This document shows positions 1 through 27,626 of a DNA stretch of 38,189 bases, piece by piece. The position numbers and the translations under genes were made by a program. The notes under the pieces are model-generated. The model was not told the DNA's origin. It searched no databases and was given only the letters and a program-made list of their open reading frames with translations. Numbering within the stretch: position 1 is the first letter of the stretch; each line of letters begins with the position of its first letter. Source of the stretch: a virus (lineage: Duplodnaviria; Caudoviricetes); the IMG/VR virus record IMGVR_UViG_3300005805_000211, positions 1 to 38,189 of that record, one strand, 5' to 3'.

Positions 1-476
1 CCAGGCCGGAGCACCACCACCCACCACCTTTCACCTAGAGCAGAGGTGATGCGAACCATTAGAGCATTGCGCCTGATAAACCCATTACAGACACGCCGAG
101 AGGCACTCATTGAGTGGAGATACATAACAGCCTTTATTAGTGAAGTGTTAGCCCTGATGAGCAGACAAGCACTAATAGATAACGAACCAACACCCTTCCC
201 TAACTTCACAGAGATACATATTAAAACCGAAAGACGAACAGGTATCTACAAGACACACAAGGTACTTGCCTCACTTCCACCTGACCATAGACGAGAAGTG
301 ATTAAAGACATACAGAGACGACGACGAAGGGCATACAACATATTCCTCAGGACAACATCTACGCAAGAGTTCTCTGAGTAGGTGAGACAGTAGTGAGTCC
401 TACCCCTACCACACCATAACCACACAGGGGTCAGAGGTAGGACACCAAGACAGCATATAAGTTCATTTTTGTATGT

Positions 477-505
477 TGGCAAGTCTGATAATGGTCTACT
501 AATAT
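477..505 (+). promoter_or_regulatory. cassette-type promoter, leaderless
   Basis: TGGCAA-GTCTG-N12-TAATAT, with the ATG at 512 only 6 nt after the -10 box. Confidence 0.7.
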
Positions 506-511
506 GAAGTT

Positions 512-823
512 ATGACCACACGAACATACACAACTACATATGATGAACAACAATGTCGCTACCCGAAGGGGTCGCTAGTCCAAGCGTCAGTTGAGCCACA
601 TAAAACTATTGCCTATGGTATTCGTACAGAGTGGGCAGTAGTGCTAACAGTCGCCTCACCGACAGGTGATAGTTCAGATTTTTTTCACCTACCTATTCCT
701 TGCTTGTCGCTAGAACAGGCGTGTGCTATCGCAGACGACTACAACAGAGGCTTAGAGCCACGCCTAGTTGGAGTTTGGTATGAGCAGTATGCGAAGTATG
801 ACGAGCAACTAAGAGTTTCGTGA
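512..823 (+). CDS. hypothetical protein
   Basis: Follows the promoter; GTGA overlap with the next ORF. Confidence 0.75.
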   Translation: MTTRTYTTTYDEQQCRYPKGSLVQASVEPHKTIAYGIRTEWAVVLTVASPTGDSSDFFHLPIPCLSLEQACAIADDYNRGLEPRLVGVWYEQYAKYDEQLRVS

Positions 824-1362
824 AACTAGCAACAGCCCACAGAGCCTCACGGGTATACACGGGTAATCTACTGATACTCCAGAACGCAGTCCGTGTAGCA
901 GGTATGACCAACACACTTGATCGTGTAGACCTAGCATTGCGAGGTTTCCTACCAGAACGAGTGAAGCGAAGTGCCTTTAGGAAAGAGTTGTTTATAGACA
1001 GGATGGTAGAGAACGCTTCTACCACTAACGCAGTAGACGACAGTCGCAAACTCTACGCAGATGAGTGGAGTGATGACCTAGAAACTTTTACCTCACGCTA
1101 CGAAATGCGAGTGTGGTACATAATCGGAAGGTGCTACGGTTTTGCTTTCGCAACAGATACTCAACAGTATCTCAACTACAAATCGGAACTACTCGCAGTA
1201 ATGAATATTGACAATGCCTCACTCGGCGAACTAACCAACACATATACGCTGGGAGTAGAACACGGTAGGAAAGATAAAAAACAGCGTGATGAGTGGCAGA
1301 AGCGTGAGCGCATAGAGACACTGCGAGAGCGTAATCATCCAGTCTTTGGAGATAATGAATAA
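820..1362 (+). CDS. hypothetical protein
   Basis: 180 aa, coupled to both neighbours. Confidence 0.8.
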   Translation: MKLATAHRASRVYTGNLLILQNAVRVAGMTNTLDRVDLALRGFLPERVKRSAFRKELFIDRMVENASTTNAVDDSRKLYADEWSDDLETFTSRYEMRVWYIIGRCYGFAFATDTQQYLNYKSELLAVMNIDNASLGELTNTYTLGVEHGRKDKKQRDEWQKRERIETLRERNHPVFGDNE

Positions 1363-1765
1363 CGCTCGGATATGTTCGGCGTGTGGGATAGAGAACCCCT
1401 GTACACAACAGAGGTTCTTACCTGATAATGGCTGGGTCTTACACTTTGACACCTTCGGCTATTACGGTGGATTTGATGACAACATTGAGACAGTGATTTC
1501 AGGCGCACCCAGTAGAGAGTGGATATTTTGTCACGACTGTGTTGTGAAGTTTCTTTCTTTATTTCCACTACTCCAAGCCAGTCTCGGCAAGGGGATACAC
1601 CTATGCGAAAGCGATACTCCGTGTTGCGAGTGGGCGTGGCGTGCTACGGGTAGGTTTGGTAAGTATGAGCGCAACGAGAGTGGTGAACTCGTACCTGTGA
1701 GTGGAGCGCATTACCAGATAGTCCAAGACGGTCTATGGGTAGACGGAGATGATGAGCGTGTGTGA
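1355..1765 (+). CDS. hypothetical Cys-rich (putative Zn-binding) protein
   Basis: CSAC and CHDC motifs; GGAG SD before ATG 1355 (the ORF track starts at 1346). Confidence 0.75.
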   Translation: MNNARICSACGIENPCTQQRFLPDNGWVLHFDTFGYYGGFDDNIETVISGAPSREWIFCHDCVVKFLSLFPLLQASLGKGIHLCESDTPCCEWAWRATGRFGKYERNESGELVPVSGAHYQIVQDGLWVDGDDERV

Positions 1766-1961
1766 CCACTACACGAAGCCAGACCTTTATAACGAGGTAG
1801 ATGAAGTTGTCGCTTTGTATGAAAGCAAAGCGCAACGGAGACTAGAGCAGTCAGCCCGTATCCCTTCCATAGATGAACCGATAGATGGCAGTAAGTATTA
1901 CGACCTCATATGCCAAGTCGCTAATGAGATGTGGCTTGATGACATACTGACTGATAGATAA
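1752..1961 (+). CDS. hypothetical protein
   Basis: GGAG SD; the stop codon lies in a TGATAGATAACT motif variant. Confidence 0.7.
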   Translation: MSVCDHYTKPDLYNEVDEVVALYESKAQRRLEQSARIPSIDEPIDGSKYYDLICQVANEMWLDDILTDR

Positions 1962-2030
1962 CTCCCCGAAGAAAGCCGGGGCTCTCAGTACGACAAGCCA
2001 AGAGTTATCTATTAGAGGTCTGTGAGTTGT

Positions 2031-2240
2031 TTAATAGATAACTATCTGTCCAACGCTCACAAGAAACACAATGCCGTTATGGGTGATGTAGGCGTACTCT
2101 TTTTCTGTCCCTTTGTACTCAACAAAAGTTGCCTCGACCGTTCCAGTGCGTTCCCGTTTACCTTTTCCGTTATCGGTTATGTATCCAAAAGATACGGGTA
2201 TCTGTACGGTCGTTCCCTTTTTTATTTCTGTTGTGTTCAT
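2031..2240 (-). CDS. hypothetical protein
   Basis: ATGA overlap with the upstream minus-strand ORF. Confidence 0.7.
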   Translation of the reverse strand: MNTTEIKKGTTVQIPVSFGYITDNGKGKRERTGTVEATFVEYKGTEKEYAYITHNGIVFLVSVGQIVIY

Positions 2241-2404
2241 CTCTTCGCTTTACTTGGTCTATCCATCTTTATCGCTTTGCTAAGTGCGCTCTCACGGGTT
2301 GGGTGTAGTTCTACTGGGGAATAACGGTTAGCCGTATCCACCACCCACCAACCCTTGCCTTCGTAATCAGGTCTTATGTCGTATCTCGGCATTGCGTACC
2401 CCAT
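2237..2404 (-). CDS. hypothetical protein
   Basis: ATG at 2404 overlaps the stop of the upstream ORF. Confidence 0.6.
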   Translation of the reverse strand: MGYAMPRYDIRPDYEGKGWWVVDTANRYSPVELHPTRESALSKAIKMDRPSKAKR

Positions 2405-2601
2405 TAGAGAACCGTGACCCACGACATTGCTACCCGTAGCAAGTTGTCATAGTCGCCTGATGTGGACTGTCTGGTGTACTCAGCGATTTCATCTGCCGAA
2501 ACTTTTGCTCGCTTTAGTGCTTTCCTTACAGCACCCATAATCGCAAATGCGTTGCCGTCATTGCCTGTTAGTTGTACTTCTATTTCTGGATACTTAACCA
2601 T
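2404..2601 (-). CDS. small conserved phage protein (LTGxDGNAF...SGDYDNLL type)
   Basis: Recognisable DGNAFAIMG and SGDYDNLL motifs; GAAAGG SD. Confidence 0.85.
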   Translation of the reverse strand: MVKYPEIEVQLTGNDGNAFAIMGAVRKALKRAKVSADEIAEYTRQSTSGDYDNLLRVAMSWVTVL

Positions 2602-4065: not shown

Positions 4066-5088
4066 ATGGCACACGGTTTAGAGATTACGGCAGGAGGGGT
4101 GGCTCGAATGGCGTACTCTAATAGAGAAATCCCCTGGCACAGACTTGGGATAGCGATGAAGGGTCTCCAAACAGCCGAAGCAATGCTCGAAGCCGCACAG
4201 GCAGACTTTGACGTAGTCACTACACGGGTTGCTGTGTGTGACGACAATGGCGAACCTATACGAAACCCCGACAACTCTCCAATATTAATTAGCGATAGTC
4301 GCGCGACCGTACGGGTGAATAATGATGGAACGTTCGAGGGTCTCTCAACGGTCGGAACTCGCTACGTGGTTCAGCAAAACAAAGAGTGTTTAGATTACGC
4401 CCTAGCAATTGTCGGAGCTAGTACGGGTGATGCTGTAGTTGACACGTGTGGAGTTCTTAATGGTGGGCGTGAATTCTTTGCTTCACTAGATCTCGGCGCA
4501 CTAGTCATTGACCCCATGGGCGTAAATGACCAAATCGAACGTTATCTATTAGTGAGAAACGGGCATGACGGCAAGACGCCGATTACCTTTGCCAACACTT
4601 CTATCCGAGCAGTATGTAAGAACACAGTAATCGCTGGGATGAAATCAGCGAAACGTGTATTCACTGCTCGCCATACAAGAAATGTCGAAGCCGCAATAGA
4701 GCAAGCCAACGAAGTTCTTAATATTTCTAATGCGTGGGCGTCAGAATTCACGAGAACAGCAGAAAAATTACTCTCCGTCAAAGTCGCTCCCGGAACAAAA
4801 ATATTTGGAGATGTTCTTGACGCAGTGTTTCCATTAGAAAATGGCGCAACGTCTAGACAAAAGAAAAACAGAGACGAAGTTCTCTCGCTTGTCAAGGGTG
4901 TTTACGAAAGTGATAACAACGCAAAGGGCTACGGGTATAACGGTTGGTCAATGCTGAATGCTATTGGCGAATATCTTGATCACTATCGCGAAGCGACCCC
5001 AGTTGAGAGAGCGCTTGCGTCAATGGATAATAACTCTTGGGTGACAAGAGCAAAAATGATCGCTCAAGACAAACTCTTGTCGGTTTAA
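4066..5088 (+). CDS. DUF932 family phage/plasmid protein (TIGR03299-like)
   Basis: MAHGLE start, PWHRLG, Y-x-V-x-QN, L-x-GG, YLLVRNGHDG and IRAVCKNT motifs. Confidence 0.9.
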   Translation: MAHGLEITAGGVARMAYSNREIPWHRLGIAMKGLQTAEAMLEAAQADFDVVTTRVAVCDDNGEPIRNPDNSPILISDSRATVRVNNDGTFEGLSTVGTRYVVQQNKECLDYALAIVGASTGDAVVDTCGVLNGGREFFASLDLGALVIDPMGVNDQIERYLLVRNGHDGKTPITFANTSIRAVCKNTVIAGMKSAKRVFTARHTRNVEAAIEQANEVLNISNAWASEFTRTAEKLLSVKVAPGTKIFGDVLDAVFPLENGATSRQKKNRDEVLSLVKGVYESDNNAKGYGYNGWSMLNAIGEYLDHYREATPVERALASMDNNSWVTRAKMIAQDKLLSV

Positions 5089-5582: not shown

Positions 5583-7526
5583 TTATCTATTAATAGATGC
5601 TCGCGAAATTAACCCGAGTATTAACTGCACTGCCCCATCTTCCTCAACAAAATCTCCACCCTCGACAGCTGCATTAACAACTGTTCTTTTGTTATCTATT
5701 AGCTCATAGATGTATTCGTCTATAGTCCCACTCGTCAGCATGTATGTCGCCGTGACTGAACCCGTTTGACCAATACGGTGAAGTCTGGAATATGTCTGGT
5801 CTATGTCTGCGGGTGTCCATGGCAACTCGATGAACAAACACTCCTCGGACGCCGTAAGGGTGTGCCCTGTTTTGGCAGCCTGTATAGATAACGCAATTAC
5901 CGGAGCTTCATCCACCGATAAAGTCTGAAACTTTCTTTTGTTTTCTTCTACGTCTTCTACTTTCATTCCGCCCTGGATGCGTAGGTCCCCAAACTTACGG
6001 GCTACTTCGTCAACAATGTCTCGATGATGCGCTGCTACTACTACTTTTTTCCCGTTATCTATTCTCTCTTGTATCCATTCGAGCGCTGCTTCCATTTTCG
6101 CTTTAGCCGCGAGCCTTCTCAAGACAGATAGTCGAACTAGGTGTTCATTTGCTTCCGCCCTGATCATTGCCGACATTGCTGCGTTATAGGAAGGCAGCCC
6201 TTGCTCTATCGCTAACTGCCTAGCCCTTTCTGCGATATACATCAAAATATCTTGCTCTGCTTTCACGTAGTCTTTCATCGCGGCACTCGAACCGTCAATG
6301 ACTAATCGACTATGAACTACGGGCGGCAACTCTGATAGCACCTGGTCCTTGGTTCGGCGTATGTAGCATGCTCCTCTTAATCGTTCGTTTAACTCGTCAA
6401 GATGTGAATTGCCACTTAAGTTCCATTGACCAAATCTGTCTTGGTACGCAGCGCAATACCTTCGATAAAAACCCCAAAGACCTCCAAAATCCTTCAGCCT
6501 TCCCAAGATGTCTAGTTGACTGGCATATTCGGCTGGCCTGTTTGTCACGGGTGTTCCAGTGAGACAAAGCACGGGTGTATTCTTCTTGCTACTTCTAGCT
6601 ATTTTTATTGCTGCCTTTGTTCGTTGTGCCGTCGATGTTTTGCAGTAGTGGCTCTCGTCGAACACATAAGCGCCATGTCCCAAAAGATTAGCTTGCCATG
6701 CTTGTATGTTGCTGTAGCCAACGACGACTATGTCGTATGAGTTTTCTCCTGGGAATGTTTTTCTATTTGTTACTGTGCTAACTCTTCTATGAGGTATCCA
6801 CTTTGATATCTCATACGCCCAGTTGAGTACAAGGCTTGGTGGACACACAACAACGGCCGGATAAGTATCCCCATCTCTGGCAGATAAATACTCCAACGTT
6901 GCTATCGCCTGAATTGTTTTACCCAACCCCATCTCATCTGCAATAAATGTTCTTCGAGCGTTTGCCGCATAAGCAACGCCGGCTTTTTGATATGGAAGTA
7001 ATTCTCCAGTAAGGCCGGGCACGACTATGTCGGCGTCGGTCGACCTGGAAGCTTCGATTAATGTGTTGATTTGCGAATTTACTTTCTTGGAAATTGCCAT
7101 AACTTCGGCATCTATGGCCACATCAAAACCTTGAGCCCACTCAATTACTTGCGAGATGGATGACATCGGCGCGCGCCACGAATATCGTGCTCCATCCCAT
7201 GAAACAGCCGGGATTTTTTTTACTGCCGCGATTATTACTCGCTCGTATGGGAACTTCATATATATCATGTCGTCATAAAGAGACACGCGTTGCTCGCCGT
7301 GGGAAGCAATACTTTTTGGGGCCTGGAATTTTAAAACATCAGAGGTGACTTCGAACTCGTACTTAAGAGCAAACTCCCTAGCAGAGGCGATGGACGTAAT
7401 TGGAACTCTCCACACCTTGGCTACTTTGTCCCATCGAGCTCCATTTACTCTCTTTATTTCGCTTACCTGTTCTTGGTCGAACGGGAAATCAAAAATGAGT
7501 TCTTTGTTATCAAGAAACATCCTCAT
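5583..7526 (-). CDS. SNF2/SWI2-family helicase with two N-terminal HARP-like repeats (SMARCAL1-like)
   Basis: ADEMGLGKT, DESH, LTGTP, YIRRTK and QTYSRLHRIGQ motifs; duplicated FPY/F...K...WD...WR.P unit. Confidence 0.92.
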   Translation of the reverse strand: MRMFLDNKELIFDFPFDQEQVSEIKRVNGARWDKVAKVWRVPITSIASAREFALKYEFEVTSDVLKFQAPKSIASHGEQRVSLYDDMIYMKFPYERVIIAAVKKIPAVSWDGARYSWRAPMSSISQVIEWAQGFDVAIDAEVMAISKKVNSQINTLIEASRSTDADIVVPGLTGELLPYQKAGVAYAANARRTFIADEMGLGKTIQAIATLEYLSARDGDTYPAVVVCPPSLVLNWAYEISKWIPHRRVSTVTNRKTFPGENSYDIVVVGYSNIQAWQANLLGHGAYVFDESHYCKTSTAQRTKAAIKIARSSKKNTPVLCLTGTPVTNRPAEYASQLDILGRLKDFGGLWGFYRRYCAAYQDRFGQWNLSGNSHLDELNERLRGACYIRRTKDQVLSELPPVVHSRLVIDGSSAAMKDYVKAEQDILMYIAERARQLAIEQGLPSYNAAMSAMIRAEANEHLVRLSVLRRLAAKAKMEAALEWIQERIDNGKKVVVAAHHRDIVDEVARKFGDLRIQGGMKVEDVEENKRKFQTLSVDEAPVIALSIQAAKTGHTLTASEECLFIELPWTPADIDQTYSRLHRIGQTGSVTATYMLTSGTIDEYIYELIDNKRTVVNAAVEGGDFVEEDGAVQLILGLISRASINR

Positions 7527-8090: not shown

Positions 8091-8219
8091 AGTTATCGGA
8101 AGCCCCCGTACCGAATCGATGTGTGGTCCCTTCGAGCGGGGCTCTTTCTATCAATAAAAAAAGTTATCTATTAATAAAAAAAGTTATCTATTAGAGAACA
8201 GTGTCTCTAATAGATAACT
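8091..8219 (-). repeat. composite cassette element with inverted TAATAGATAACT pair
   Basis: Polar motif at 8091-8109; palindrome AGTTATCTATTAGAGA-N6-TCTCTAATAGATAACT at 8182-8219. Confidence 0.75.
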
Positions 8220-8224
8220 TTTCT

Positions 8225-8599
8225 TTAGAGCCACTCGGCTAAATCGCCATCCATAATTTCAGATGAGTCCACTCCGTTAGCTTCAGCGATTGCTTCCCAT
8301 AAATCTTCTTCAGTGAAATTGCCGTTCTCTGGAAGAAAATCATAAAAAGTGCCAGTCTTTTTACGAGGCTCAACTACTTCCACTTCTTCATCAGCAAATA
8401 AAGTTTGGAAGATTACAGGGCTATATTCGTCTTCGTGTCCCTCAATGTCTACTCCATCCCTCATGGTGTCGGTGTCCATGTCGTAAACACTTTGTGGACT
8501 CACGGATACTTCACTTACTTTGATTTTTACTTGTTGTCCAAGAAAATCTGAACACTTAATAATCATTCCCTCTTTTATTTCTTTGGCTTGAATTTTCAT
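8225..8599 (-). CDS. hypothetical acidic protein
   Basis: CAACTA leader and GAGGG SD. Confidence 0.8.
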   Translation of the reverse strand: MKIQAKEIKEGMIIKCSDFLGQQVKIKVSEVSVSPQSVYDMDTDTMRDGVDIEGHEDEYSPVIFQTLFADEEVEVVEPRKKTGTFYDFLPENGNFTEEDLWEAIAEANGVDSSEIMDGDLAEWL

Positions 8600-8653
8600 A
8601 ATTTCCCTCTCGTTGTTTAGTTGTTGTTTAGTTATTGTTTATTAAATCGATTT

Positions 8654-8947
8654 TTATACACTTAACCCTTCGGCTTTGGCTTCGTCAAATGAGAGCCAAG
8701 GGCTATCTGAGACCAAAGTTTTCATTTCTTCTAAAACAAGAAACCAGTATTCTGCTACTGATAAATCACAAAGTTGATCCTCGCTGGCAAATCCTGTATG
8801 TCCTGAGTTGGTGTAAAGATCTTTAGGCAACTCAATCTGATGAGAGAAGCACCGATTACCGTGTTCTTTGTAAAAGTATTGATTAAGTTTCAAATTATTA
8901 TCTTTTGCGTATGTTTCGCATTCTTTTCTACTTGATGATTTCTTCAT
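8654..8947 (-). CDS. hypothetical protein
   Basis: Promoter and GAGGGG SD. Confidence 0.8.
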   Translation of the reverse strand: MKKSSSRKECETYAKDNNLKLNQYFYKEHGNRCFSHQIELPKDLYTNSGHTGFASEDQLCDLSVAEYWFLVLEEMKTLVSDSPWLSFDEAKAEGLSV

Positions 8948-18704: not shown

Positions 18705-18736
18705 GAGAGTGGCACACCCCCCCGTGTGCCACTCTT
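18705..18736 (+). terminator. hairpin after gene
   Basis: AGAGTGGCACAC / GTGTGCCACTCT. Confidence 0.6.
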
Positions 18737-18784
18737 TCGCCTACCCCTAATAGATAACTTTTTCACCAACCCAACCCAACGAAC

Positions 18785-18894: not shown

Positions 18895-18920
18895 GATGTT
18901 CTACTAAAAGGAGCAACGAT

Positions 18921-19160
18921 ATGACAGATAAAATTTGTACTGCTTGTGGGCGTAAAAGTTCTGAGCATATTCTCTGTAGTTATGACAAAGTCACTCGGTA
19001 TTGTCCTGGCGATAAAATTATGTCCAAAGATGAGGAGTTGGAACTCATTGACGACCTGATTAATATGTTTGATGAATTAGGTTTAACAATAGAAACCTTT
19101 AAGGAATTAGGCTTAATAGATAACAACTACCAACCACTAGAAATCAAAGGGGATAGATAA
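18921..19160 (+). CDS. hypothetical protein
   Basis: AGGAG SD; CTAC motif. Confidence 0.75.
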   Translation: MTDKICTACGRKSSEHILCSYDKVTRYCPGDKIMSKDEELELIDDLINMFDELGLTIETFKELGLIDNNYQPLEIKGDR

Positions 19161-19378
19161 TGATGATAAACACAAATCCACAGGAGTTGCGAGAAACAGT
19201 CAGTCGTGCTTACTGGCAGGGCAGACAAGAGGCACAACAAGAGATAGACCAACTCAAAGCAGAAATTGAGAGACTAAAAAATCTCCGTTTCACTGGTGCG
19301 CCCTACTCTCAAAAAGAGTTGGAGCAAATGGGCAACCCAAACTATGTGACACCAGAAGGGTGGATATCGTGGGAGTAG
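19160..19378 (+). CDS. hypothetical protein
   Basis: TAATG coupling. Confidence 0.75.
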   Translation: MMINTNPQELRETVSRAYWQGRQEAQQEIDQLKAEIERLKNLRFTGAPYSQKELEQMGNPNYVTPEGWISWE

Positions 19379-19572
19379 TTGTAAACGAATTTAATGAGTG
19401 GTGGCTTAATCATCTCGCCCAAGAAACAGAGAAGGCTAAAAAGCGAGCAGATAGGCTTTATCCAACTCGTGTTCTCAGCAATAAATTAAAAAGAGAAATC
19501 TTTATGGACTGCTTTCATTGGGCGATGTTGGAGCAACGACTGACAATGGAGCAACTTTATGATAAGAAGTAA
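19360..19572 (+). CDS. hypothetical protein (start uncertain)
   Basis: Fills the gap in the operon. Confidence 0.6.
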   Translation: MDIVGVVVNEFNEWWLNHLAQETEKAKKRADRLYPTRVLSNKLKREIFMDCFHWAMLEQRLTMEQLYDKK

Positions 19573-19822
19573 AGAAGTAATAAACGGCGACAAAGACTGG
19601 TTTATTTGCTTGTGTAAAAACGAACCACACTTAGACGGATTTTTTACTTGTCTGCCCAACGGGAGCATTACGCCACCAACGCTTAACGGTGACTGGCAAG
19701 GCGTATATTACGTTTGTGGTAAATGTAGTCGCATTATCAACCAAGACACGCTAGAGGTCGCTGGTGTCTGCTCTGAGCAAGTTGCTTTTAATAACGCCAA
19801 CTATAATTGGGATCTCTACTAA
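19559..19822 (+). CDS. hypothetical Cys-rich protein
   Basis: CLC.N...GF.TC and CGKC motifs; GGAG SD. Confidence 0.75.
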   Translation: MIRSKEVINGDKDWFICLCKNEPHLDGFFTCLPNGSITPPTLNGDWQGVYYVCGKCSRIINQDTLEVAGVCSEQVAFNNANYNWDLY

Positions 19823-20184
19823 TGATAATAGATAACTTTTTTTCGCGAATTCGCTCGCTTGTGTCCGTTATCTATCAGTGTCTCATTGCTCAAAAACGAA
19901 ACGAACGGGTAATAGGTATAAAGGCTGAAATCATCTCAGATGAGATTATGTTGGAGTCTCCCTATTCTGTAGTTGCCAAAACTAGAGAATTAGTTTATTG
20001 CTCGCTTTCTCGTCAGCCAAAATATGAATTATTTGACGAGTATGGGATTCCTGATGATGATGTCTTTCACTATTTCCCAGACATTAAGAGTGTTCTAAAG
20101 CAGTGTGTATCCACTGGCGATAATGGTTGGCGTATTTACTCTTGCGAACTAGTGTCTGCAAAAGAGGATTTGCTAGACGCCTAA
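19822..20184 (+). CDS. hypothetical protein
   Basis: TAATG coupling favours start 19822. Confidence 0.65.
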   Translation: MIIDNFFSRIRSLVSVIYQCLIAQKRNERVIGIKAEIISDEIMLESPYSVVAKTRELVYCSLSRQPKYELFDEYGIPDDDVFHYFPDIKSVLKQCVSTGDNGWRIYSCELVSAKEDLLDA

Positions 20185-20216
20185 CCCTAATAGATAACTT
20201 TTTTTTGACCGGAAAG

Positions 20217-20415
20217 AGCCCCGGGTCCAACGGAACATGCGGGGCTTCGACCTGTCGGCATAGGGGGCTGGGGGGCTTCCAATAACTCTCGGCTGTAAAT
20301 AAAATGATTTTATTTGATGACCCTGAACGCTGGGGCTTCCGATAACTCTCTAATAGATAACTTTATTTGACGGTGGTGGATGAGGTTGGCAAGTCTGTAC
20401 TTGTGGGGATATAGT
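20217..20415 (+). repeat. composite element with two polar motifs
   Basis: Inverted repeat at 20217-20246, motifs at 20270-20287 and 20332-20347, 12-mer, 16-mer at 20368-20383, promoter at 20387-20415. Confidence 0.85.
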
Positions 20416-20446
20416 GGGTCGTACCACAACTAACAAAGGATTAAAT

Positions 20447-21175
20447 ATGCCTAATTGGTGCTATCAAAACCTAGAAATACGAGGACCGAAATCTGACATT
20501 GACGAATTCTTTGACGCCATGCAACAGTCAGTTCCCGACTCTGAGGGGGTAATCCATACAACGAGCGAACTCAACCACTTATGCCCACTTGATGAAAGAA
20601 CATACGCCTACAAAACTATTACCGACAAAGACGGAAATGAAAAACTCATAAGAACCTATGCGACTATGGAAGAAAATGGCTTTGACGGCTATAACCACGC
20701 AGTAGAAGTGTGGGGAACAAAGTGGGGCGCATGCGATTTGGAAGTCAATAGTCGCAAAGGCAAATATCCACTTCATATTTACTTCACTAGTGCTTGGTCG
20801 CCTGCGTCTGGCTTAATTAGGGGCATATCCACGAAGTACCCGACTCTAATTTTCGGGCTGAGATACACAGAGGAAGCAGATTTTTTTGCTGGATACGAAA
20901 TAGTCCAAAATGGGAAAATTCGCCATACTGCCAATGCTGGGTCTGCCAACACTGTGGAAGCAGATGAGTGGTTGGAAACTCAGAAACAACTAGCAGAAAG
21001 TAATCCTGAAATCAAAGAGTGCGACTATATGGATACTTACTACGACATGTGCAATGAAGCCCGAGAACTCCGTGACGATAAATTAGAAACGGGATATCAG
21101 AAAGTTATGAATTCCTTCTCACGGTGCTACTCGGCTAAACCACCGAAAGAAAAGGTGATGACTACCCCCTTTTAA
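20447..21175 (+). CDS. YubB/DUF1281-like ferredoxin-fold protein
   Basis: MPNWC.N.L.I.G, WGTKWG and F.SAWSP motifs; AAGGA SD. Confidence 0.85.
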   Translation: MPNWCYQNLEIRGPKSDIDEFFDAMQQSVPDSEGVIHTTSELNHLCPLDERTYAYKTITDKDGNEKLIRTYATMEENGFDGYNHAVEVWGTKWGACDLEVNSRKGKYPLHIYFTSAWSPASGLIRGISTKYPTLIFGLRYTEEADFFAGYEIVQNGKIRHTANAGSANTVEADEWLETQKQLAESNPEIKECDYMDTYYDMCNEARELRDDKLETGYQKVMNSFSRCYSAKPPKEKVMTTPF

Positions 21176-21225
21176 CTTAATAGATAACTTATTAGACACA
21201 AACCCATAATCAAACAAAGGAAAAA

Positions 21226-21447
21226 ATGGATACCAAAATAGAAAAAGAATCAAAAAAAATAGCAATGCGCTTATTGCAGGAGCGACAAGCAAAAGACTGG
21301 TCGCAACAGGAACTCGCCGATAGGGCTGGTCTTGACCGAAAAACAGTCAACCGAATTGAGAACCTGCACTTCTCGCCAAGTATGGAAACCTTCTTGCGTC
21401 TATGCAATGCAATGAAAGTCCGACCACAAGAAGTCATTAAGGGCTAG
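21226..21447 (+). CDS. XRE-family HTH transcriptional regulator
   Basis: SQQELADRAGLDRKTVNRIEN...PS. Confidence 0.9.
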   Translation: MDTKIEKESKKIAMRLLQERQAKDWSQQELADRAGLDRKTVNRIENLHFSPSMETFLRLCNAMKVRPQEVIKG

Positions 21448-21460
21448 TTATCGGTTCGTG

Positions 21461-21503
21461 GTGGTCGCTATGCCTGCACCTTTCATGCTTGCATGGCGAC
21501 CAC
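21461..21503 (+). other. hairpin with anti-SD-like loop
   Basis: 13-bp stem with one G-U pair, loop CCUUUCA. Confidence 0.5.
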
Positions 21504-21508
21504 TCGGC

Positions 21509-21549
21509 TAATAGATAACTCTGCTAGTTTGTACCCTTACTGATATGCT
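21509..21549 (+). promoter_or_regulatory. 12-mer plus cassette-type promoter
   Basis: TAATAGATAACT-CTGCTA-GTTTG-N12-TATGCT. Confidence 0.8.
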
Positions 21550-21580
21550 CTACTAACCACAACTACTACAAGGAGAAATT

Positions 21581-22294
21581 ATGTCAGACGAAAAAGACAA
21601 CCAAAACACCGAAGCACCAGAGCGCACAAGCGACCCTACGAAGTTTCGTAATCAGGTAATGCTGGAAGCACTCAAAGACACAATGACCCGAACCATATAT
21701 GCAAAAACAGAAATGTGCAAAGCAGAACCAATGTCTGACAACCCACCACTTCTGTTGGTTGCCTATAATGCAGACGCAGAGAACACGCCGAAACTCCAAG
21801 TTGGCGACAATGAAAAAATCAAAATGGGCATGATTCCACTTATCCACTCGGACGATGTTCGTGACGCTTTAATTGACGTAATTGGCGCATTGCCAAGCGA
21901 ACAATTTGAGTTCATGATTCTCGCTGTTGAGGGATACCACGACACTGCACAAGTAAACGGTGAACTGCCCGAAAATTGGAAGCGAGGCGATTTGGCTGAG
22001 GACTACAAAACAAATCCATTTACTACCGTAAAAGAGGGAATCATAGTTAGTGGCGTGGACTGGGAACACGAATACGCCATAAACGGTCATTGCACTTACT
22101 CTTACGATGACAAGGGCGTTCCAGTGTTTGACGAAACAGACATGAGTTGGTCGCAAATAGAAATCAGTGAGGAAACTGGCATGATGACTTTTATTATGGC
22201 TAGTGCTTGCAGTTTTATGCAGAGAAAACTCCTAGCAGAACACTTCCACTCATTATTGGAGTCAACTCCTAAAAAGAAAAATAACCCACAATGA
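21581..22294 (+). CDS. hypothetical protein
   Basis: AAGGAG SD. Confidence 0.85.
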   Translation: MSDEKDNQNTEAPERTSDPTKFRNQVMLEALKDTMTRTIYAKTEMCKAEPMSDNPPLLLVAYNADAENTPKLQVGDNEKIKMGMIPLIHSDDVRDALIDVIGALPSEQFEFMILAVEGYHDTAQVNGELPENWKRGDLAEDYKTNPFTTVKEGIIVSGVDWEHEYAINGHCTYSYDDKGVPVFDETDMSWSQIEISEETGMMTFIMASACSFMQRKLLAEHFHSLLESTPKKKNNPQ

Positions 22295-22446
22295 ACGAAA
22301 ACGCCGTAAAGCAAATCACCGAAATTGTTGATAAAGCAATAGGCACAATATCGGGAAGGGAGTTGGTGGCTTCGTCTGAAATCATTGACCTACTTCTTGA
22401 TATCCGACTACTCCTACTAACAGAGACAGACAAGGAAACAGCATGA
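22291..22446 (+). CDS. small hypothetical protein (51 aa, not in ORF track)
   Basis: ATGA overlaps at both ends; MNENAVKQITEIVDKAIG... Confidence 0.7.
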   Translation: MNENAVKQITEIVDKAIGTISGRELVASSEIIDLLLDIRLLLLTETDKETA

Positions 22447-22808
22447 CAATAGAATTAACTGGCGAGGACAAAAACAACCCTTTTTTGGCACTTGGGCAAT
22501 TTGATATTGAGGACCTATCCCTACTGACCGAAGCCATAGGCTTATTCGTGCAGAACAACTCACGGCTCATGTTTGACGCAAAGGAAGTCCACGAAGTCGC
22601 CAAATGTACTAATGACAAAGAACGTCAGAAGGCGATATCCAAACTAAAACCAAAATATAAAGGTCATGCACTAGATGACGATGAGATAAACCGACTAGAC
22701 CTAATAGATAACTTAGTACTTGACGCAATGAGCGCACTGGAAGCCAAAGAGGAATCGGGCGCAGTCATACTCTCGCTAGAGGAACACCTAAAGAATCAGG
22801 AGGAGTGA
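22443..22808 (+). CDS. hypothetical protein
   Basis: AAGGA SD; ATGA overlap. Confidence 0.8.
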   Translation: MTIELTGEDKNNPFLALGQFDIEDLSLLTEAIGLFVQNNSRLMFDAKEVHEVAKCTNDKERQKAISKLKPKYKGHALDDDEINRLDLIDNLVLDAMSALEAKEESGAVILSLEEHLKNQEE

Positions 22809-23106
22809 TTCGGCTTTGCTGTCAGCCTGAGCCCCGCTTTACTCTTTCAAAAATTGCTCCCGACGTTAAAAAAAATCAAAAAAATACACTCTTGGGCGGC
22901 CGGCCGGCGGCGAGAAAAAATCAAAAAAATGTAATTTTTTATATGACGGTGGTGGATGAGATGGCAGTGGTGGCAGTGCGAAGAATTCGGACTCCAAGTC
23001 ATAACGAAAATTTCACTTTTTTAACCATGTACCGCGCAAGTCTGATATTGGGTTCGGTAGCATGGGGGGCTAATAGATAACTTTTAACTACAAAAAAGGA
23101 TTTATC

Positions 23107-23592
23107 GTGGAAACTATCAATGACGAGTACGTAGATACAGTCAATAAAGAACTGTGGAGTAAAGCCCGAGAAAAGTACGGCTCTAACTACTCTGTACCCA
23201 AAGATGAAATTTCCTACATCGGCGAACTCATTAGAGGGCTACATGTGCTGGGGATTTGGCAAAAGGAAGGGCAAGCAAAAGCCCCCGAATCTGTCTTGCG
23301 CTCATACTCCGTCATGGAGCATGTAATCCCCGAAGTAATTAAAAGGGCTTTAGGTAAACAGGAAATAGAAACTGCCGAGTCTTTGCGCCCAGAAAAAAGA
23401 GAAAAAAAATGGAATTCTTTTATTGCTTGGGCGAAACTTCATGAAGCCGAACAATTCACTACCGAACAACTGGTAGAGGTTTGCGGGTTCTCTTACCAGA
23501 CAACTCTTGAGTTCTTAAAGATTTCTCCATACTTTAAGAAAATCAAAAAGGGTCTTTACGAAATAACGAACCCAAAGACTAAAGATAAATAA
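23107..23592 (+). CDS. hypothetical protein, possible C-terminal winged HTH
   Basis: AAGGA SD; FTTEQLVEVCGFSYQT...KKIKKGLY; variant promoter at 23034-23063. Confidence 0.75.
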   Translation: METINDEYVDTVNKELWSKAREKYGSNYSVPKDEISYIGELIRGLHVLGIWQKEGQAKAPESVLRSYSVMEHVIPEVIKRALGKQEIETAESLRPEKREKKWNSFIAWAKLHEAEQFTTEQLVEVCGFSYQTTLEFLKISPYFKKIKKGLYEITNPKTKDK

Positions 23593-23640
23593 GTCTTTCT
23601 TTAATAGATAACTTTTTATCTTTCTTTCTTTTTACAAAAA

Positions 23641-23886
23641 AGCCCCGCTCTACCCAAAACCAAACGGGGCTTCGGCTCGCCGAGCAAGCAGACAGGCACG
23701 ACGGGGGGCTTCCGATAACTGGCGCACACTTCGCTTCGCTTCGTGCTTGCCCACACCCAAACAGCCACCTCTAATAGATAACTCCAAGCACACCTCTAAT
23801 AGATAACTCTCTCTAATAGATAACTTCCAACAATAATAAATAGTCTTAAATAAATGTTGGCTAGTCTGTACCCTTCCCGATACAGT
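23641..23886 (+). repeat. composite cassette element with three tandem 12-mers
   Basis: Inverted repeat at 23641-23671, 20-mer at 23701-23720, block, CTCTAATAGATAACT three times, promoter at 23858-23886. Confidence 0.9.
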
Positions 23887-23926
23887 TGGTCTTGCCATAT
23901 CAACCACAACAAAAAGGAGTAATAAA

Positions 23927-24649
23927 ATGGCAGATACAACGAACAAACTCCCCGAGTGCTGGCAGGCACTTGAGGACACACTTAATGCAGGAATTGACCG
24001 AGTGATTCTATTCGGACCTTCGGGTATCGGAAAGACTTACGCAGGTCTAACTACTGGTGATGTTTCGGCTGGCGCATACCGACTGGTCTGCACAGAGGAC
24101 ATGACCAATATGGACGTGACTGGTGGATTCATGCCAAACGGCAAAGGTGGATTCCAGTGGCTCAATGGCTCGGCTCTAAAGGCTTGGCAAGGAAACGGGA
24201 AAAAGGGTGGTCGGCTCATCGTTGATGAAGTTGACAAGGCTTCGGGCGATGTGTTCGCAACACTTCTCTCAATGCTTGATTCACCTGAATCGGCTTCATA
24301 CGAACACCCTGAGACTGGCGAGGTAATTCGTCCATTAGAGGGATTCTCAGCAATTATGACTACAAACATTGAGACAATGGGCGAACTCCCAACTGCTCTC
24401 GCTGACCGATTCCCGATTCGGATTCGCATTGACAAGCCACACCCACAAGCGTTGCTTCGTCTTTCACCTGACCTTCGTGAGTATGCAGTTCGCATGGCTG
24501 ACGCTGGTGATGACAGAATCTCACTCCGAGCCTTCATCGCTCTTGACACACTTCGCAAGAGTGTCGGTATGGAACGAGCCTGCCACCTGACCTTCGGGCG
24601 CAGGGCTAAGCAGATTCTTGACGCTATTGCAGTGGACATGGTGAAATAA
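23927..24649 (+). CDS. MoxR/CobS-like AAA+ ATPase
   Basis: Walker A GPSGIGKT, Walker B LIVDE, TTN sensor, ALADRF. Confidence 0.9.
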   Translation: MADTTNKLPECWQALEDTLNAGIDRVILFGPSGIGKTYAGLTTGDVSAGAYRLVCTEDMTNMDVTGGFMPNGKGGFQWLNGSALKAWQGNGKKGGRLIVDEVDKASGDVFATLLSMLDSPESASYEHPETGEVIRPLEGFSAIMTTNIETMGELPTALADRFPIRIRIDKPHPQALLRLSPDLREYAVRMADAGDDRISLRAFIALDTLRKSVGMERACHLTFGRRAKQILDAIAVDMVK

Positions 24650-24651
24650 CC

Positions 24652-26202
24652 ATGTCACGACACACTCCACAAACTACAGCAGGTAGGGGCAAGCCCTTCC
24701 CTACCTCAATAGATAACTCCAAGAGGGGGTCGGCTAAGGCAGAGCCGACCCTTATTGGGCGAAAAGACATAGAACACGGCACTTGGACAGTCGAAAATTG
24801 CCGAGCAGTGCGTGGCGAGCCACGAACAAGCATTACTGAACGCATTATGTTTGCGCCAAGCGATGATGATGAAAAGGCTCGGGCTGTTCGGGCGCATGAA
24901 ATGATGCACTCCAAAATCTCACCCTCTACGCAAATGGATAAGTGGGTGGAACGACAAATTGCGTCAGAGCAAGCACTCATTGTTGCTGAGGAATTGCGAG
25001 TCAACTACCTATGCTCTAAAGCAGGGTTTGATATGTCGCACTTGGCAGACGGGGGCGAACTCGCAGACGGGGAGCGTATGGGTGCAACCAAAGACTGGGC
25101 TGGTTGCGTGGCTACGGCGTTCGCAACTGCTGGAACAGGTGCTAACAAATTATTCCTAAACGGCGTTCGCAGACATAACAGAGAGTGGGGCGAAATCTTA
25201 CTTAAAATCTCTAAGCGAGCATTAAGAGAAATTAAGAAAGCCGATAAATCTAGAGATCTTGCAGACACAAGCGTAGATAGCAGTAGTGGACTATCACCCA
25301 TAGGGTTCTCTCACACCGAGAGAATCGCAGAGTGGATAGACAGACTTGCCATGTTTCCACCACCACCTGAACAAACTAAAAAAGTCAAAAAGTCAAACAA
25401 GTCGGATAAAAGCGAGGGCGATTCCTCAATAGATAACTCCGACAAACGAACTGCACACACCAACAAAGGTGCGTCTGATAGTGGAAATAAAGACGGAAAG
25501 CCTGACCTTGACCAAATCACCCCGAGCGAACCTACTCGTGGTATCCCACGCTGGACAGAACTACGGATAGAGCGTTGCCCAATGCCAAAATACAGCAAAG
25601 GTCATATCGGTAAAAAACGAATTGCTACAAACATGGGTCGCAGACCACGCCGTATGCACCGTATGTTGACCGACCCAAGTATGCGAGTGTTTGACAGAAC
25701 AGTTCGTGGTAGTGGTGGCATGGTCATACTTGACGCAAGTGGTTCTATGTCTTTCACTGAATCACAAATTGCAGAAATCCTAGAACACGCTCCAGGTGCT
25801 ACTATCGCTATGTATTCGGATAGGGGCAATACTGGAACGAATATGTGGATAGTCGCTGATAAGGGTCGCATGGTAGAGCAGTTGCCCGACTATGGATTCG
25901 GAAACGGCGTTGACTTCCCTGCTATTGAGTGGGGCGTTAAGAATCGAGCCAAGAAAAATGCACCTCTCGTATGGGTCACTGACGGGGGAGTATGTGGACA
26001 CAATGACAGTTTCAATAGTGTTCTCGCTATGCAGTGTTTGACATACGCTCGCAAGAATCGCTATATCATCGTTCCCCACGCTGACGAAGCAATAAAGCAA
26101 CTAAAGCAACTGGCGAACAATGGAAAGGCAAAAAGCGTCTATCCACCAATGTTTAAGGAAGTGTGGAAAAGCGTTCACGGCACTATCCCTTTGACCGACT
26201 AA
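24652..26202 (+). CDS. HEXXH metallopeptidase-like domain plus VWA domain protein
   Basis: AHEMMH...EE motif, low-complexity linker, MIDAS DASGS, VTDG. Confidence 0.85.
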   Translation: MSRHTPQTTAGRGKPFPTSIDNSKRGSAKAEPTLIGRKDIEHGTWTVENCRAVRGEPRTSITERIMFAPSDDDEKARAVRAHEMMHSKISPSTQMDKWVERQIASEQALIVAEELRVNYLCSKAGFDMSHLADGGELADGERMGATKDWAGCVATAFATAGTGANKLFLNGVRRHNREWGEILLKISKRALREIKKADKSRDLADTSVDSSSGLSPIGFSHTERIAEWIDRLAMFPPPPEQTKKVKKSNKSDKSEGDSSIDNSDKRTAHTNKGASDSGNKDGKPDLDQITPSEPTRGIPRWTELRIERCPMPKYSKGHIGKKRIATNMGRRPRRMHRMLTDPSMRVFDRTVRGSGGMVILDASGSMSFTESQIAEILEHAPGATIAMYSDRGNTGTNMWIVADKGRMVEQLPDYGFGNGVDFPAIEWGVKNRAKKNAPLVWVTDGGVCGHNDSFNSVLAMQCLTYARKNRYIIVPHADEAIKQLKQLANNGKAKSVYPPMFKEVWKSVHGTIPLTD

Positions 26203-26247
26203 CTAAATAGATAACTTCTCGCCTGCTCTAAACGGCAGGCAAGACTA

Positions 26248-26289
26248 GCACTACCCACCAGTTTAATTACTCCAACTGGTGGGTAGTGT
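26248..26289 (+). other. long hairpin with anti-SD-like loop
   Basis: 16-bp stem, loop UAAUUACUCC. Confidence 0.55.
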
Positions 26290-26325
26290 CTTATTCACGG
26301 AACAACTACTAGAAAAGAGAAAAAA

Positions 26326-26568
26326 ATGAAAGAAATAGAAATACCAAAAGAACACTACAACGACTTAACACTGAATCAAATGGCAGATTTAGAAAGCACT
26401 CTTAATAGTCTGCAAGAGGCGATAGAGGCTCTTACAGAAGTCAAAAACATGATAATCGCAGGCAAGTTCTCGCAACGAGAAGCAGAACTTACGCATGATG
26501 ATTTAATCAAAAATGCAGGTTTAGATTTCTTGTCTGCTATGGAACAATACGCTTGGTCTGACCATTAA
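26326..26568 (+). CDS. hypothetical protein
   Basis: CAACTAC leader and purine-rich RBS. Confidence 0.75.
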   Translation: MKEIEIPKEHYNDLTLNQMADLESTLNSLQEAIEALTEVKNMIIAGKFSQREAELTHDDLIKNAGLDFLSAMEQYAWSDH

Positions 26569-26581
26569 AAGGGGCGAGCCA

Positions 26582-26824
26582 ATGACAAAAAAAATAACAC
26601 TTGATGAGTGGCACGAGAGATATTTACAGCCCTTCACGAACGATGACAGGCTACAGCAGGTCATAGACGCTTATGGTGGGTTTGCAGGCTGGGTGCTTGA
26701 CGGAGTGTTGGCAACAAAAAACATAGACGGTGAGTGGGTTACTGACCATGAGTGCCTAGAGATAATTTCTTTACTGATTAGTCGCTACCTTGACGCAGTC
26801 AATAGAGGGATAGACGCTCACTGA
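26582..26824 (+). CDS. hypothetical protein
   Basis: AAGGGG SD. Confidence 0.75.
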   Translation: MTKKITLDEWHERYLQPFTNDDRLQQVIDAYGGFAGWVLDGVLATKNIDGEWVTDHECLEIISLLISRYLDAVNRGIDAH

Positions 26825-26869
26825 GACTAATAGATAACTCTAATAGATAACTCCAAAGAAAGAGAAAAA

Positions 26870-27148
26870 ATGATAAGCGAGATTAGAAAACAAATAAACG
26901 AACACCTAGAAAACATAGGCGAAAATGCCCTGCTTATGGACGGATTTGATGAGGCGTTAATCGGGTTCTCTCAGAGAATAAACGAACCTTTATTGGCAGT
27001 TTATTCGTGGGAAAAAATGATGAACGTGTGCATGAAACGTGACGGCATGACTGAGGACGAAGCAGACGAATATATATCCTATAACTGCATTGGTGCTTGG
27101 GTCGGCGAGCAGACTCCAATTATTGTTATGCCACTGAATATCTACTAA
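26870..27148 (+). CDS. conserved small phage protein
   Basis: DGFDEALIG...AVYS...EA.EY..YN.IGAWVGE.TP motif. Confidence 0.85.
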   Translation: MISEIRKQINEHLENIGENALLMDGFDEALIGFSQRINEPLLAVYSWEKMMNVCMKRDGMTEDEADEYISYNCIGAWVGEQTPIIVMPLNIY

Positions 27149-27266
27149 TAGATAACTTAGAAACGAGGAATAATCAAATCATGAAAGTTATCTATTATGT
27201 ACTATTTGTGACTCTGTATGTTTTGAGGATAGACGTACTGCCACGACTGGTACTACTAATAGATAA

Positions 27267-27626
27267 CTATTTGCGACCACCCGAATTACGGCTACTTAAG
27301 TCCACGCTTCTATTCTCATTGTCTTTGAGTGAGATAGCGTTTAAGGCTCGCTCCATAGTGCGCACTAGAGCCACCAATGCAGACACGGCTAGAGCCTCTA
27401 GGAACGTCAGAGTCCACGAGATAGCACCAGCGTCACGCAAGACGCTAAGAACTCCGAGTAAAGAAAACGAATAGACCAAAGAAATTCCAGCAAAGCCAAA
27501 CAGAGCCCCGCCCAAAACGCCGAATGACGGGGCTTTTTTAGAAGCTTCTGGGACCAGTGAAGAATATTTGGAAAATTGATTTAATTCTCTTTTTGATGAT
27601 GTTGTGTACCCGGGCGGCGGTTTCAT
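27267..27626 (-). CDS. hypothetical membrane protein
   Basis: AAGGA SD; two hydrophobic segments. Confidence 0.7.
   Translation of the reverse strand: MKPPPGYTTSSKRELNQFSKYSSLVPEASKKAPSFGVLGGALFGFAGISLVYSFSLLGVLSVLRDAGAISWTLTFLEALAVSALVALVRTMERALNAISLKDNENRSVDLSSRNSGGRK

What the first reader, a model, noticed from the sequence alone, without database searches (positions are those of the whole stretch)
173..27268. About 60 copies of TAATAGATAACT, also written into coding sequence, confined to the accessory region
Seen: the motif occurs at gene ends, often supplying the stop codon (5583, 10797, 27148). It also occurs in tandem (23772-23826, 26828-26852), as inverted pairs (2003-2043, 8182-8219, 13433-13474) and directly before promoters. 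Two of its three forward frames contain stops. Inside genes it appears in the open frame as x-I-D-N: ELIDN and RIDN in the helicase, LIDN twice in the ART-like gene, LIDN in 18921 and 22443, SIDNS twice in the VWA gene. Full copies vanish after ~27.3 kb. It shares the core GATAACT with the 20-mer. Knowledge: mycobacteriophage L5 stoperators are similarly dense asymmetric sites. Inference: a binding site that coats this region for silencing, activation, nucleoid organisation or DNA protection.
Basis: partly seen in the sequence, partly recalled or inferred. Interest (0 to 1): 0.82.

Follow-up and report, generated by a model that had tools for sequence, protein, structure and literature searches.

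The report
Phage early-gene word with lineage dialects
An uncultured lake phage writes one 12-letter DNA word about 60 times across only its block of small early-type genes, its relatives respell the word at the same places even inside proteins, and it is likely the docking site of a still unidentified phage protein that would shut this block off.

Summary
In detail: 49 exact and 61 near copies (chance 0.01 and 0.21), all in 173-27268. The window is a fragment of a ~150-170 kb integrase-free lake myovirus with WhiB genes. One phage clade carries the word, and each lineage uses its own spelling (about nine). In the VWA gene two in-gene sites stay in place but are respelled per lineage (IDNS, LDKS, VDKS, VGKS) and are absent in word-free relatives, so the DNA word is selected, not the peptide. 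Sites abut the -35 region of a conserved promoter class (106 co-oriented, 1 reversed), follow stop codons, and enter long genes more than short ones. The block's right edge matches, within about 0.5 kb, the edge of a block purged of 4-bp palindromes. Best reading (0.5): stoperator-like operators of a phage protein that shuts early genes off. No reader was found: none of the DNA-binding candidates tracks the spellings convincingly. It is not a cluster A stoperator system (no integrase, no such repressor). The scan noted the same kind of word and the purge before, in related phages.

The parts
173..27268 (.). Word A array: 49 exact and 61 near copies of the asymmetric 12-mer, mean gap between clusters about 0.5 kb
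11330..11370 (+). Example of the promoter-abutting class: A directly upstream of the -35-like hexamer of a D promoter (same geometry at 13656, 14574, 16728, 21509 on + and 9006 on -; 3-4 nt further off at 15632 and 3068)
24707..24718 (+). In-gene site 1 of the VWA-type gene (SIDNS), respelled in each lineage
25427..25438 (+). In-gene site 2 of the VWA-type gene (SIDNS), respelled in each lineage
5690..5701 (-). In-gene site in the SNF2 helicase (ELIDN); IDN in only 2 of 10 orthologues
4540..4551 (-). Antisense in-gene site in the DUF932 gene; the peptide RYLL is kept in 9 of 10 orthologues, so here only codon choice carries the word
8182..8219 (.). Inverted pair at a convergent junction, predicted hairpin with U-tracts on both strands (z -7.8 and -9.1)
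13432..13473 (.). Inverted pair forming a predicted 20-bp hairpin with G-U pairs and a U-tract (z -8.8)
23772..23825 (+). Three tandem copies upstream of the AAA-VWA promoter
26828..26852 (+). Two tandem copies behind a stop codon
11253..11272 (+). Example of motif B, the 20-mer (14 copies of its core): G-run plus the right half of A; the half changes together with A across lineages
11191..11219 (.). Example of element C, a dyad GCCCCG-N16-18-CGGGGC (12 of 12 copies with that spacing) at the head of cassettes; its half-site is also enriched in word-free relatives
8200..27540 (.). Main stretch purged of short palindromes; they resume at 27543, 275 bases after the last copy of A. 1-3.4 kb is purged too, the 4-8 kb island is not
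27645..27661 (+). Motif E copy at the block edge; 8 co-oriented copies at 16.7-31.5 kb; kept in all 9 whole genomes; a separate system from A
27685..28053 (-). HA-domain plus helix-turn-helix protein; conserved with or without A, likelier reader of E than of A
36880..37311 (+). Fast-evolving winged-helix protein, long form seen only in the word-bearing clade; weak candidate reader of A

Best explanation
The word marks the promoters, gene ends and long genes of the phage's early-type block, and it is likely an operator for a phage-encoded, probably monomeric DNA-binding protein that would block initiation and elongation there to shut the block off. Shown: the array, its confinement, its orientation, its place against the -35 region, selection on the DNA spelling, and lineage-specific respelling. 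Inferred: that a protein reads it, that the protein is the phage's own, that the block is transcribed first, that binding represses, and that spellings diverge because co-infecting relatives interfere with each other's early genes.
For: Selection on DNA: 10 in-gene copies against 0.24; both VWA sites present in 12 of 28 orthologue rows in seven spellings and in 0 of 13 rows from word-free clades. Private spelling: the window has 49 of its own word and 0 of seven others; G008 has 53 in-block copies of a word that differs by one core base and 0 of the window's. DNA-level, oriented reading: within -90..+70 of 113 promoter matches, 106 sites are co-oriented and 1 is reversed, 75 promoters have one at -60..-25, 34 sites start at -34/-35; these sites lie upstream of the transcript start. 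In the window 42 of 47 unambiguous sites are co-oriented and 4 of the 5 others are partners in hairpins. Repression over activation: the distance to the promoter varies, the word replaces the -35 hexamer in 6 of 11 listed G007 promoters, 3 sites start right behind the -10 hexamer, and post-stop and in-gene sites make sense as roadblocks but not as activator sites. In-gene rate rises with gene length: 0.13, 0.23, 0.52 per kb. No fixed spacing between neighbours, as for a monomer. Same promoters exist without the word in G011, so it is an added layer. Cluster A stoperators show the same layout and divergence (PMC9283540, PMC6550527).
Against: No reader identified: the XRE, RHH1, HA-HTH, 23107 winged helix, first WhiB and a 224-aa HTH protein keep their recognition elements across spellings; the RHH2 strand is the same in two spellings; the 36880 winged helix differs as much within a spelling as between (60% and 60%) and has unlike helices for near-identical spellings. 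No integrase in 5 of 5 whole genomes, so there is no lysogeny to explain immunity-type divergence. A preferred site at about -41 is also the classic activator position (recalled). 35 of 113 promoter matches have no site within -60..+20. Pooled over six genomes with automatic gene calls the bias is weaker: 139 to 44 at stops, 34 to 19 inside genes. The gene-length trend counts orthologues repeatedly. The word contains stop codons, so gene ends are a cheap place to build it.
Confidence: 0.5

Rival explanations
1. Self-mark and protection: a protein coats the restriction-exposed early DNA at these sites, shielding it from host or phage nucleases and telling own DNA from that of relatives.
For: The last in-block site lies at +2.8 to +3.1 kb from the AAA start and palindromes resume at +3.0 to +3.35 kb in six genomes. 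Long genes gain internal sites and gaps are more even than a hard-core null in 4 of 7 genomes at p<0.05. Dialects, inverted-pair hairpins and in-gene placement match Neisseria uptake sequences (PMC3630211, passages). Early-injected DNA is the restriction-sensitive part in T5-like and Autographiviridae phages (PMC10644984 passages, PMC12455610 abstract).
Against: The purge also exists in word-free G011-G013, so it is older than the word. Protection does not need 106:1 orientation at promoters. The unpurged helicase island also carries sites. Both edges may simply follow the edge of the early genes.
Confidence: 0.2
2. Activator or counter-silencer: a virion-borne or first-made protein binds beside the weak -35 hexamers and recruits host polymerase or lifts AT-binding silencers.
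For: 34 sites start at -34/-35 from the -10 hexamer, strictly oriented. The block is richer in GC and poor in AT-only 4-mers in several genomes.
Against: Geometry shifts between lineages and the word overlaps the -35 in G007. Most sites are behind stops or in genes. The same promoter type works without the word in G011.
Confidence: 0.18
3. Molecular drive: the word spreads because it biases recombination between cassettes, as proposed for uptake sequences and PeSL elements, without a regulatory role at each site.
For: Cassette order differs between relatives. Deletions between 13-bp stoperators are known (PMC5712189, passages). One strain deletion of 197 bases starts beside a degenerate copy at 2605-2616.
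Against: In-gene sites sit at fixed places in conserved genes and cost amino-acid changes. Flanks of the word are not shared. Drive does not predict the promoter geometry.
Confidence: 0.07
4. A host protein or an RNA-binding factor reads the word.
For: No phage reader was found. Some pairs fold as terminator-like RNA hairpins.
Against: Very close phages differ in spelling (G009 against G010 and G016). Promoter-abutting copies lie upstream of the transcript. Of 42 metagenome loci with tandem copies, the 15 that carry motif B and hit genes of this phage group have 4-28 copies; the other 27 have 2-7 copies and no such genes.
Confidence: 0.05

Closest known systems
Operators and stoperators of cluster A mycobacteriophages (L5 gp71, TipsytheTRex repressor; PMC9283540, PMC6550527, PMC5712189)
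   Same: Short asymmetric word, many copies, at promoters and in short intergenic gaps, oriented with transcription, no fixed pair spacing, consensus differs between related phages.
   Different: About 60-75 sites in a 30-kb block instead of 20-30 across the genome; written into proteins; no integrase; no stoperator-type repressor found; inverted pairs double as predicted terminators; edge coincides with a palindrome purge.
PeSL promoter-terminator cassettes of T4-like phages (PMC4122927; PMC2839356 listing only)
   Same: Repeated composite elements (here C-B-A-promoter) between small variable genes of a hyperplastic region.
   Different: The word also stands alone behind stops and inside conserved genes, and it is respelled per lineage while the promoter box is kept.
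DNA uptake sequence dialects of Neisseriaceae (PMC3630211)
   Same: 10-12-mer with clade dialects round a conserved core, intragenic copies, inverted pairs as terminator hairpins.
   Different: Here in a phage, confined to a fifth of the genome, oriented to promoters; no uptake process is known that would act on it.
First-step-transfer DNA of T5-like phages (PMC10644984; 10.1101/866236)
   Same: A block of small host-takeover-type genes under selection against restriction-type sites, whose expression must later be shut off.
   Different: The purge here skips an internal 4-kb island, two-step injection is not shown, and T5 has no dispersed private word in the passages read.
Repeated start-associated motifs of lytic Microbacterium phages, clusters EC, EF, EG (PMC7302621)
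   Same: Unexplained repeated motifs in lytic actinobacteriophages.
   Different: Those have 8-13 copies at a set distance from start codons; none is reported inside genes in the passages read.

Membership tests
Cluster A operator/stoperator system | Asymmetric 13-14 bp site in many copies | tested here: met
   12-mer (13 with the preceding C in 43 of 60), 61 copies
Cluster A operator/stoperator system | One orientation relative to transcription | tested here: met
   42 of 47 unambiguous sites in the window; 106 to 1 at promoters; weaker with automatic gene calls
Cluster A operator/stoperator system | Sites at promoters and in short intergenic gaps | tested here: met
Cluster A operator/stoperator system | Sites spread through the whole genome | tested here: not met
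   48 of 48 exact copies in the block of G001, 0 in the other 135 kb
Cluster A operator/stoperator system | Temperate phage with integrase or partition system | tested here: not met
   No PF00589 or PF07508 match in 5 of 5 whole genomes; the ParB-like genes flank a PAPS reductase and no ParA was seen among the 126 ORFs scanned
Cluster A operator/stoperator system | Repressor with HTH plus Stoperator domain that co-varies with the motif | tested here: not met
   The two best candidates matched no such structure; no candidate tracked the spellings
Cluster A operator/stoperator system | Repressor-dependent, polar block of transcription | not testable with these tools
   needs a reporter assay; no RNA holder listed
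PeSL elements | Terminator stem-loop joined to an early promoter between variable genes | tested here: inconclusive
   Composite cassettes exist, but element C has a loose 16-18 nt spacer and folded no better than shuffles in one of two tests
PeSL elements | Serve as recombination points for indels | not tested
   one suggestive strain deletion only
DNA uptake sequences | Clade dialects with conserved core, intragenic copies, inverted pairs | tested here: met
DNA uptake sequences | Genome-wide spread in a naturally competent cell with a pilin receptor | tested here: not met
   phage record, confined to one block
T5-type first-step-transfer region | Contiguous terminal repeat that enters first and lacks restriction sites | tested here: inconclusive
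   Purge is strong but skips an internal island; contig depth steps down at about 33.1 kb in three runs, which strain mixture explains as well

The most novel reading that the evidence does not exclude
A lytic phage clade has evolved a private sequence barcode for its restriction-exposed early DNA: its own protein coats every half kilobase of that block, including long genes, and so protects or licenses its own early DNA while silencing or sparing no relative with another spelling. That would be kin discrimination between lytic phages by DNA words, rewritten at 60-75 places at each lineage split.
Probability: 0.2. Interest if true: 0.87.

Novelty: new variant of a known kind. Interest (0 to 1): 0.63.

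Why it matters
Stoperator-type control is known from temperate mycobacteriophages with 20-30 sites. Here a denser array sits in large phages with no integrase, bends protein sequences, arose in one clade and has been respelled about nine times, once between very close relatives. That makes two open questions testable: how lytic phages shut off their first genes, and how a protein and dozens of its sites change specificity together.

Tried and rejected
Peptide constraint (IDN needed by the proteins): rejected. Chance or composition: rejected. tRNA, tmRNA or Rfam RNA: none. Iteron, Chi or replication polarity: orientation follows local transcription units, with three switches along the block. 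Fixed dimer spacing or helical phasing between neighbours: none seen. Readers tested by alignment across spellings and not supported: XRE 21226, winged helix 23107, HA-HTH 27685, RHH 32553 and 32701, WhiB 33119, winged helix 36427, and in G001 a third RHH, a second WhiB (variable, inconclusive), a 224-aa HTH protein and a basic 253-aa protein, which has syntenic counterparts in word-free genomes. A three-way scan of G009, G010 and G016 flagged small acidic or structural genes, no DNA-binding fold. The first evenness test was biased by merging close sites and was redone with a hard-core null. Host: a WhiB search of bacterial genomes gave 3 short contigs in unrelated bins, read as misplaced phage DNA; no cultured relative. 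No RNA holder listed. Terminal repeat from contig depth: inconclusive. PafBC-type promoter: the D box sits 18 bases before the -10 hexamer and I compared it only with a recalled consensus; not pursued (listing only). Outputs were cut in the middle; the XRE and RHH2 parts were reprinted. The tree is the quick one; the careful search did not finish. Literature searches showed no paper on this word or phage group; for I saw 15 of 130 listings, all unrelated by title. Subscription papers and supplements were not searched.
Full report
Observation. The 12-mer occurs 49 times exactly and 61 times with up to one mismatch, against shuffle means of 0.01 and 0.21. All copies lie in 173-27268, and the 10-base core has no copy beyond 27.3 kb. 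Ten copies of the core lie inside 51 genes of the block, against 0.24 under synonymous shuffling. Eight of 10 IDN peptides in these genes use ATA GAT AAC; in the rest of a relative's genome 1 of 6 does.

What the window is. It is a 38-kb virus record, about 24% complete, held by lake and freshwater runs (11 of 20 listed runs hold half of the words or more). A relative of 170 kb, G001, aligns at 67-79% over much of the window. G001 has tail sheath, portal, terminase, two WhiB genes, primase and ribonucleotide reductase. No tyrosine or serine integrase was found in 5 of 5 whole relatives. So this is most likely a lytic myovirus; an actinobacterial host is inferred from WhiB, which PMC10914622 (passages) uses as a marker. 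In G001 58 of 60 core copies lie in 2.3-27.1 kb. The block holds small unknown genes in cassettes: a spaced dyad C, the 20-mer B, the word A, then a promoter-like element D (a -35-like hexamer, the box AGTCTGWAC, and TAnnnT after 18 bases). Calling it the early block is an inference from this layout.

Dialects. A de novo word count in 80 loci found by the AAA ATPase showed that relatives carry their own spelling at like density: ACTAGATAAGT, GGTAGATAAGT, AATAGATAAGT, GAGTAGATAAGT, GAGTAGATAACT, GTGTAGGTAAGT, CTAAAGGATAATGTAA, CTAGGATAGTGCA, and perhaps a G-rich form in L077. Five further whole or near-whole genomes hold 44-76 copies of their top 10-mer, nearly all within about 35 kb round the ATPase and at shared offsets. 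The genome-by-word table is almost diagonal; the overlaps are 8 and 11 related words in G009, 3 in G007, and 3 plus 1 in G006. G011-G013 keep C half-sites and E, and G011 keeps D-type promoters, but none has a word of this kind. In a quick tree of 37 rows the 16 word-bearing rows form one clade (SH-aLRT 100), and rows with different spellings can be very close (L087 against L088 and L099). The right half of B changes along with A, including the GAT to GGT switch in G010 and G016, which points to one reader for both. Between the window and G001, 21 of 28 aligned sites are identical on a background of 75%.

In the VWA-type gene both in-gene sites, near residues 18 and 255, are present in 12 of 28 rows, spelled SIDNS, LIDNS, LDKS, VDKS, IDKS, VGKS or VDNS by lineage; two more rows show their own word at one place in the aligned DNA; one word-bearing row has none; 0 of 13 word-free rows have them. 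Some rows are near duplicates, so seven spellings is the independent count. In the helicase, IDN at residue 610 is in 2 of 10 orthologues and at 489 in 1 of 10. Against a blanket claim: the antisense DUF932 site encodes RYLL, which 9 of 10 orthologues keep, so only codon choice is informative there.

Anatomy. Three classes. (1) Promoter-abutting: over 12 records (9 gave matches, several closely related) 75 of 113 D matches have a site at -60..-25 from the -10 hexamer, 34 sites start at -34/-35, 9 at -26, and 106 sites are co-oriented against 1 reversed. In G007 the word takes the place of the -35 hexamer in 6 of 11 listed promoters. (2) Post-stop: 18 of 51 genes have a co-oriented site at the stop, 5 a reversed one. 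(3) In-gene: 5 sites in 39.6 kb of genes under 600 bases, 5 in 21.8 kb of 600-1000 bases, 16 in 30.7 kb of longer genes, pooled over six genomes with orthologues counted repeatedly. In the window 42 of 47 unambiguous sites are co-oriented, 12 sit at convergent junctions, 2 at divergent ones, and 4 of the 5 reversed ones pair with a neighbour; several such pairs fold as strong hairpins. Gaps are more even than a hard-core null in 4 of 7 genomes at p<0.05, borderline in 2 (window 0.065), and not in G006; regular gene sizes could cause part of this.

The purge. Following earlier scan notes I counted short palindromes. In the window AGCT, GATC, GGCC, GCNGC, GGNCC and CCWGG occur 0-5 times per kb in 9-27 kb and 20-26 times per kb in 28-31 kb; they resume at 27543. 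The set was chosen after seeing the counts. In G007-G010 TTAA, ATAT and TATA fall to 1-8% of the rate elsewhere. In six genomes the last in-block site is at +2.8 to +3.1 kb and palindromes resume at +3.0 to +3.35 kb. The purge is also in word-free genomes, and the DUF932-helicase island keeps its palindromes yet carries sites. So the word was added to an older, specially constrained block. In T5-like and Autographiviridae phages restriction acts through sites in the first-entering DNA (PMC10644984, passages; PMC12455610, abstract), which is the likeliest cause of such a purge, though TATA and ATAT are not usual restriction sites (recalled).

Not found. The HA-HTH helix LSRQR(V/I)HQI is unchanged across all aligned rows, with or without the word; its HA helix changes in the distant clades where motif E changes, so it fits E. 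XRE, RHH1, the 23107 and 36427 winged helices, the first WhiB and a 224-aa HTH protein are near constant in their recognition parts. The 36880 protein is a predicted winged helix (pLDDT 76; MarR-like Foldseek rows, none under E 0.001), only 28-33% alike between lineages, and longer in the word-bearing clade than in word-free relatives. G009 and G018 share both helix and spelling, but G010 and G016 share the spelling and not the helix, so it stays a weak candidate. In cluster A, repressors with identical HTH domains can read different motifs (PMC6550527, passages), so constancy of a helix does not exclude a protein.

Mechanism. A site upstream of the transcript, in fixed orientation, with a private spelling, is best read as a DNA site of a phage protein. 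Repression explains all three site classes with one activity, as for stoperators, which block initiation at operators and elongation in gaps in a polar way (PMC9283540, abstract, introduction and first results; PMC5712189, passages). I give it 0.5; protection or self-marking 0.2; activation 0.18; drive 0.07; host or RNA reader 0.05.

Comparison. It works like stoperators in layout but fails membership on genome-wide spread, temperate life and repressor type. It shares traits with PeSL cassettes (PMC4122927, first third of the text), uptake-sequence dialects (PMC3630211, passages) and T5 first-step DNA (10.1101/866236 and PMC10644984, passages). Nine searches of the held library showed no description of this word; supplements were not read and could hold motif tables. 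Earlier notes of this scan report the same kind of word in related lake phages; they are leads, and the tests above are my own. Verdict: a real, selected signal, new variant of a known kind, interest 0.63.

Noticed in passing
window 16699-31531 (8 copies, all +): Motif E, TGACGGTGG(T/C)GGA, is strictly co-oriented and kept in all nine whole genomes; one copy marks the right edge of the purged block next to the HA-HTH gene, whose HA helix changes where E changes. A second, more conserved stoperator-like system.
   Followed up: partly
window 1-27540: Purge of 4-bp palindromes and CCGC, in relatives also TATA, ATAT, TTAA and AATT down to 1-8% of the rate elsewhere, skipping the 4-8 kb island.
   Followed up: partly
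window about 33.1 kb: Contig depth is about 1.5-2 times higher left of 33.1 kb than right of it in three runs of three studies; long terminal repeat, packaging start or strain mixture.
   Followed up: partly
window 10191-27535 (12 copies): Dyad GCCCCG-N16-18-CGGGGC with a non-pairing spacer whose length is lineage-typical (16-20; 25-30 in G011); looks like a dimer site rather than a terminator.
   Followed up: partly
window 22866, 22915, 28650, 29548, 30688, 30790, 33076: Phased A-tract word (AAAAAAATCAAAAA-like) often behind GGCCG runs, also inside ORFs; not found as such in G001.
   Followed up: no
L028:3672-6162 (G001): ParB-like, PAPS-reductase-like and ParB-like gene trio, the reductase 82-87% identical across lineages with a weak DndC hit; possible DNA modification system.
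   Followed up: no
L028:14047 to L029:15044 (G001): Very long head-module ORFs: 3694 aa with a prohead protease at the start, and 2699 aa.
   Followed up: no
L026:3416 to L027:3272 (G001): About a dozen 2OG-Fe(II) oxygenase genes in a row; elsewhere two TauD genes, glutathione peroxidase-like genes, an acyl carrier protein and an ion-channel gene.
   Followed up: no
L023:1-60 and L031 end (G001); window 381-420: Low-complexity CCTA/CCCAC repeats at both ends of the G001 contig, at the left side of the word block.
   Followed up: no
G001 34149 and matching places in G006-G009: One isolated copy of each genome's own word behind the HslV-like gene, upstream of WhiB, about 7 kb outside the block; no exact copy there in the window.
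   Followed up: no
window 2616-2814: Other strains lack the gene 2607-2807; the deletion starts beside a degenerate copy of the word.
   Followed up: no
L202-L210 (G013), 45-56 kb from the ATPase: A long coding repeat array with about 34 copies of one unit.
   Followed up: no
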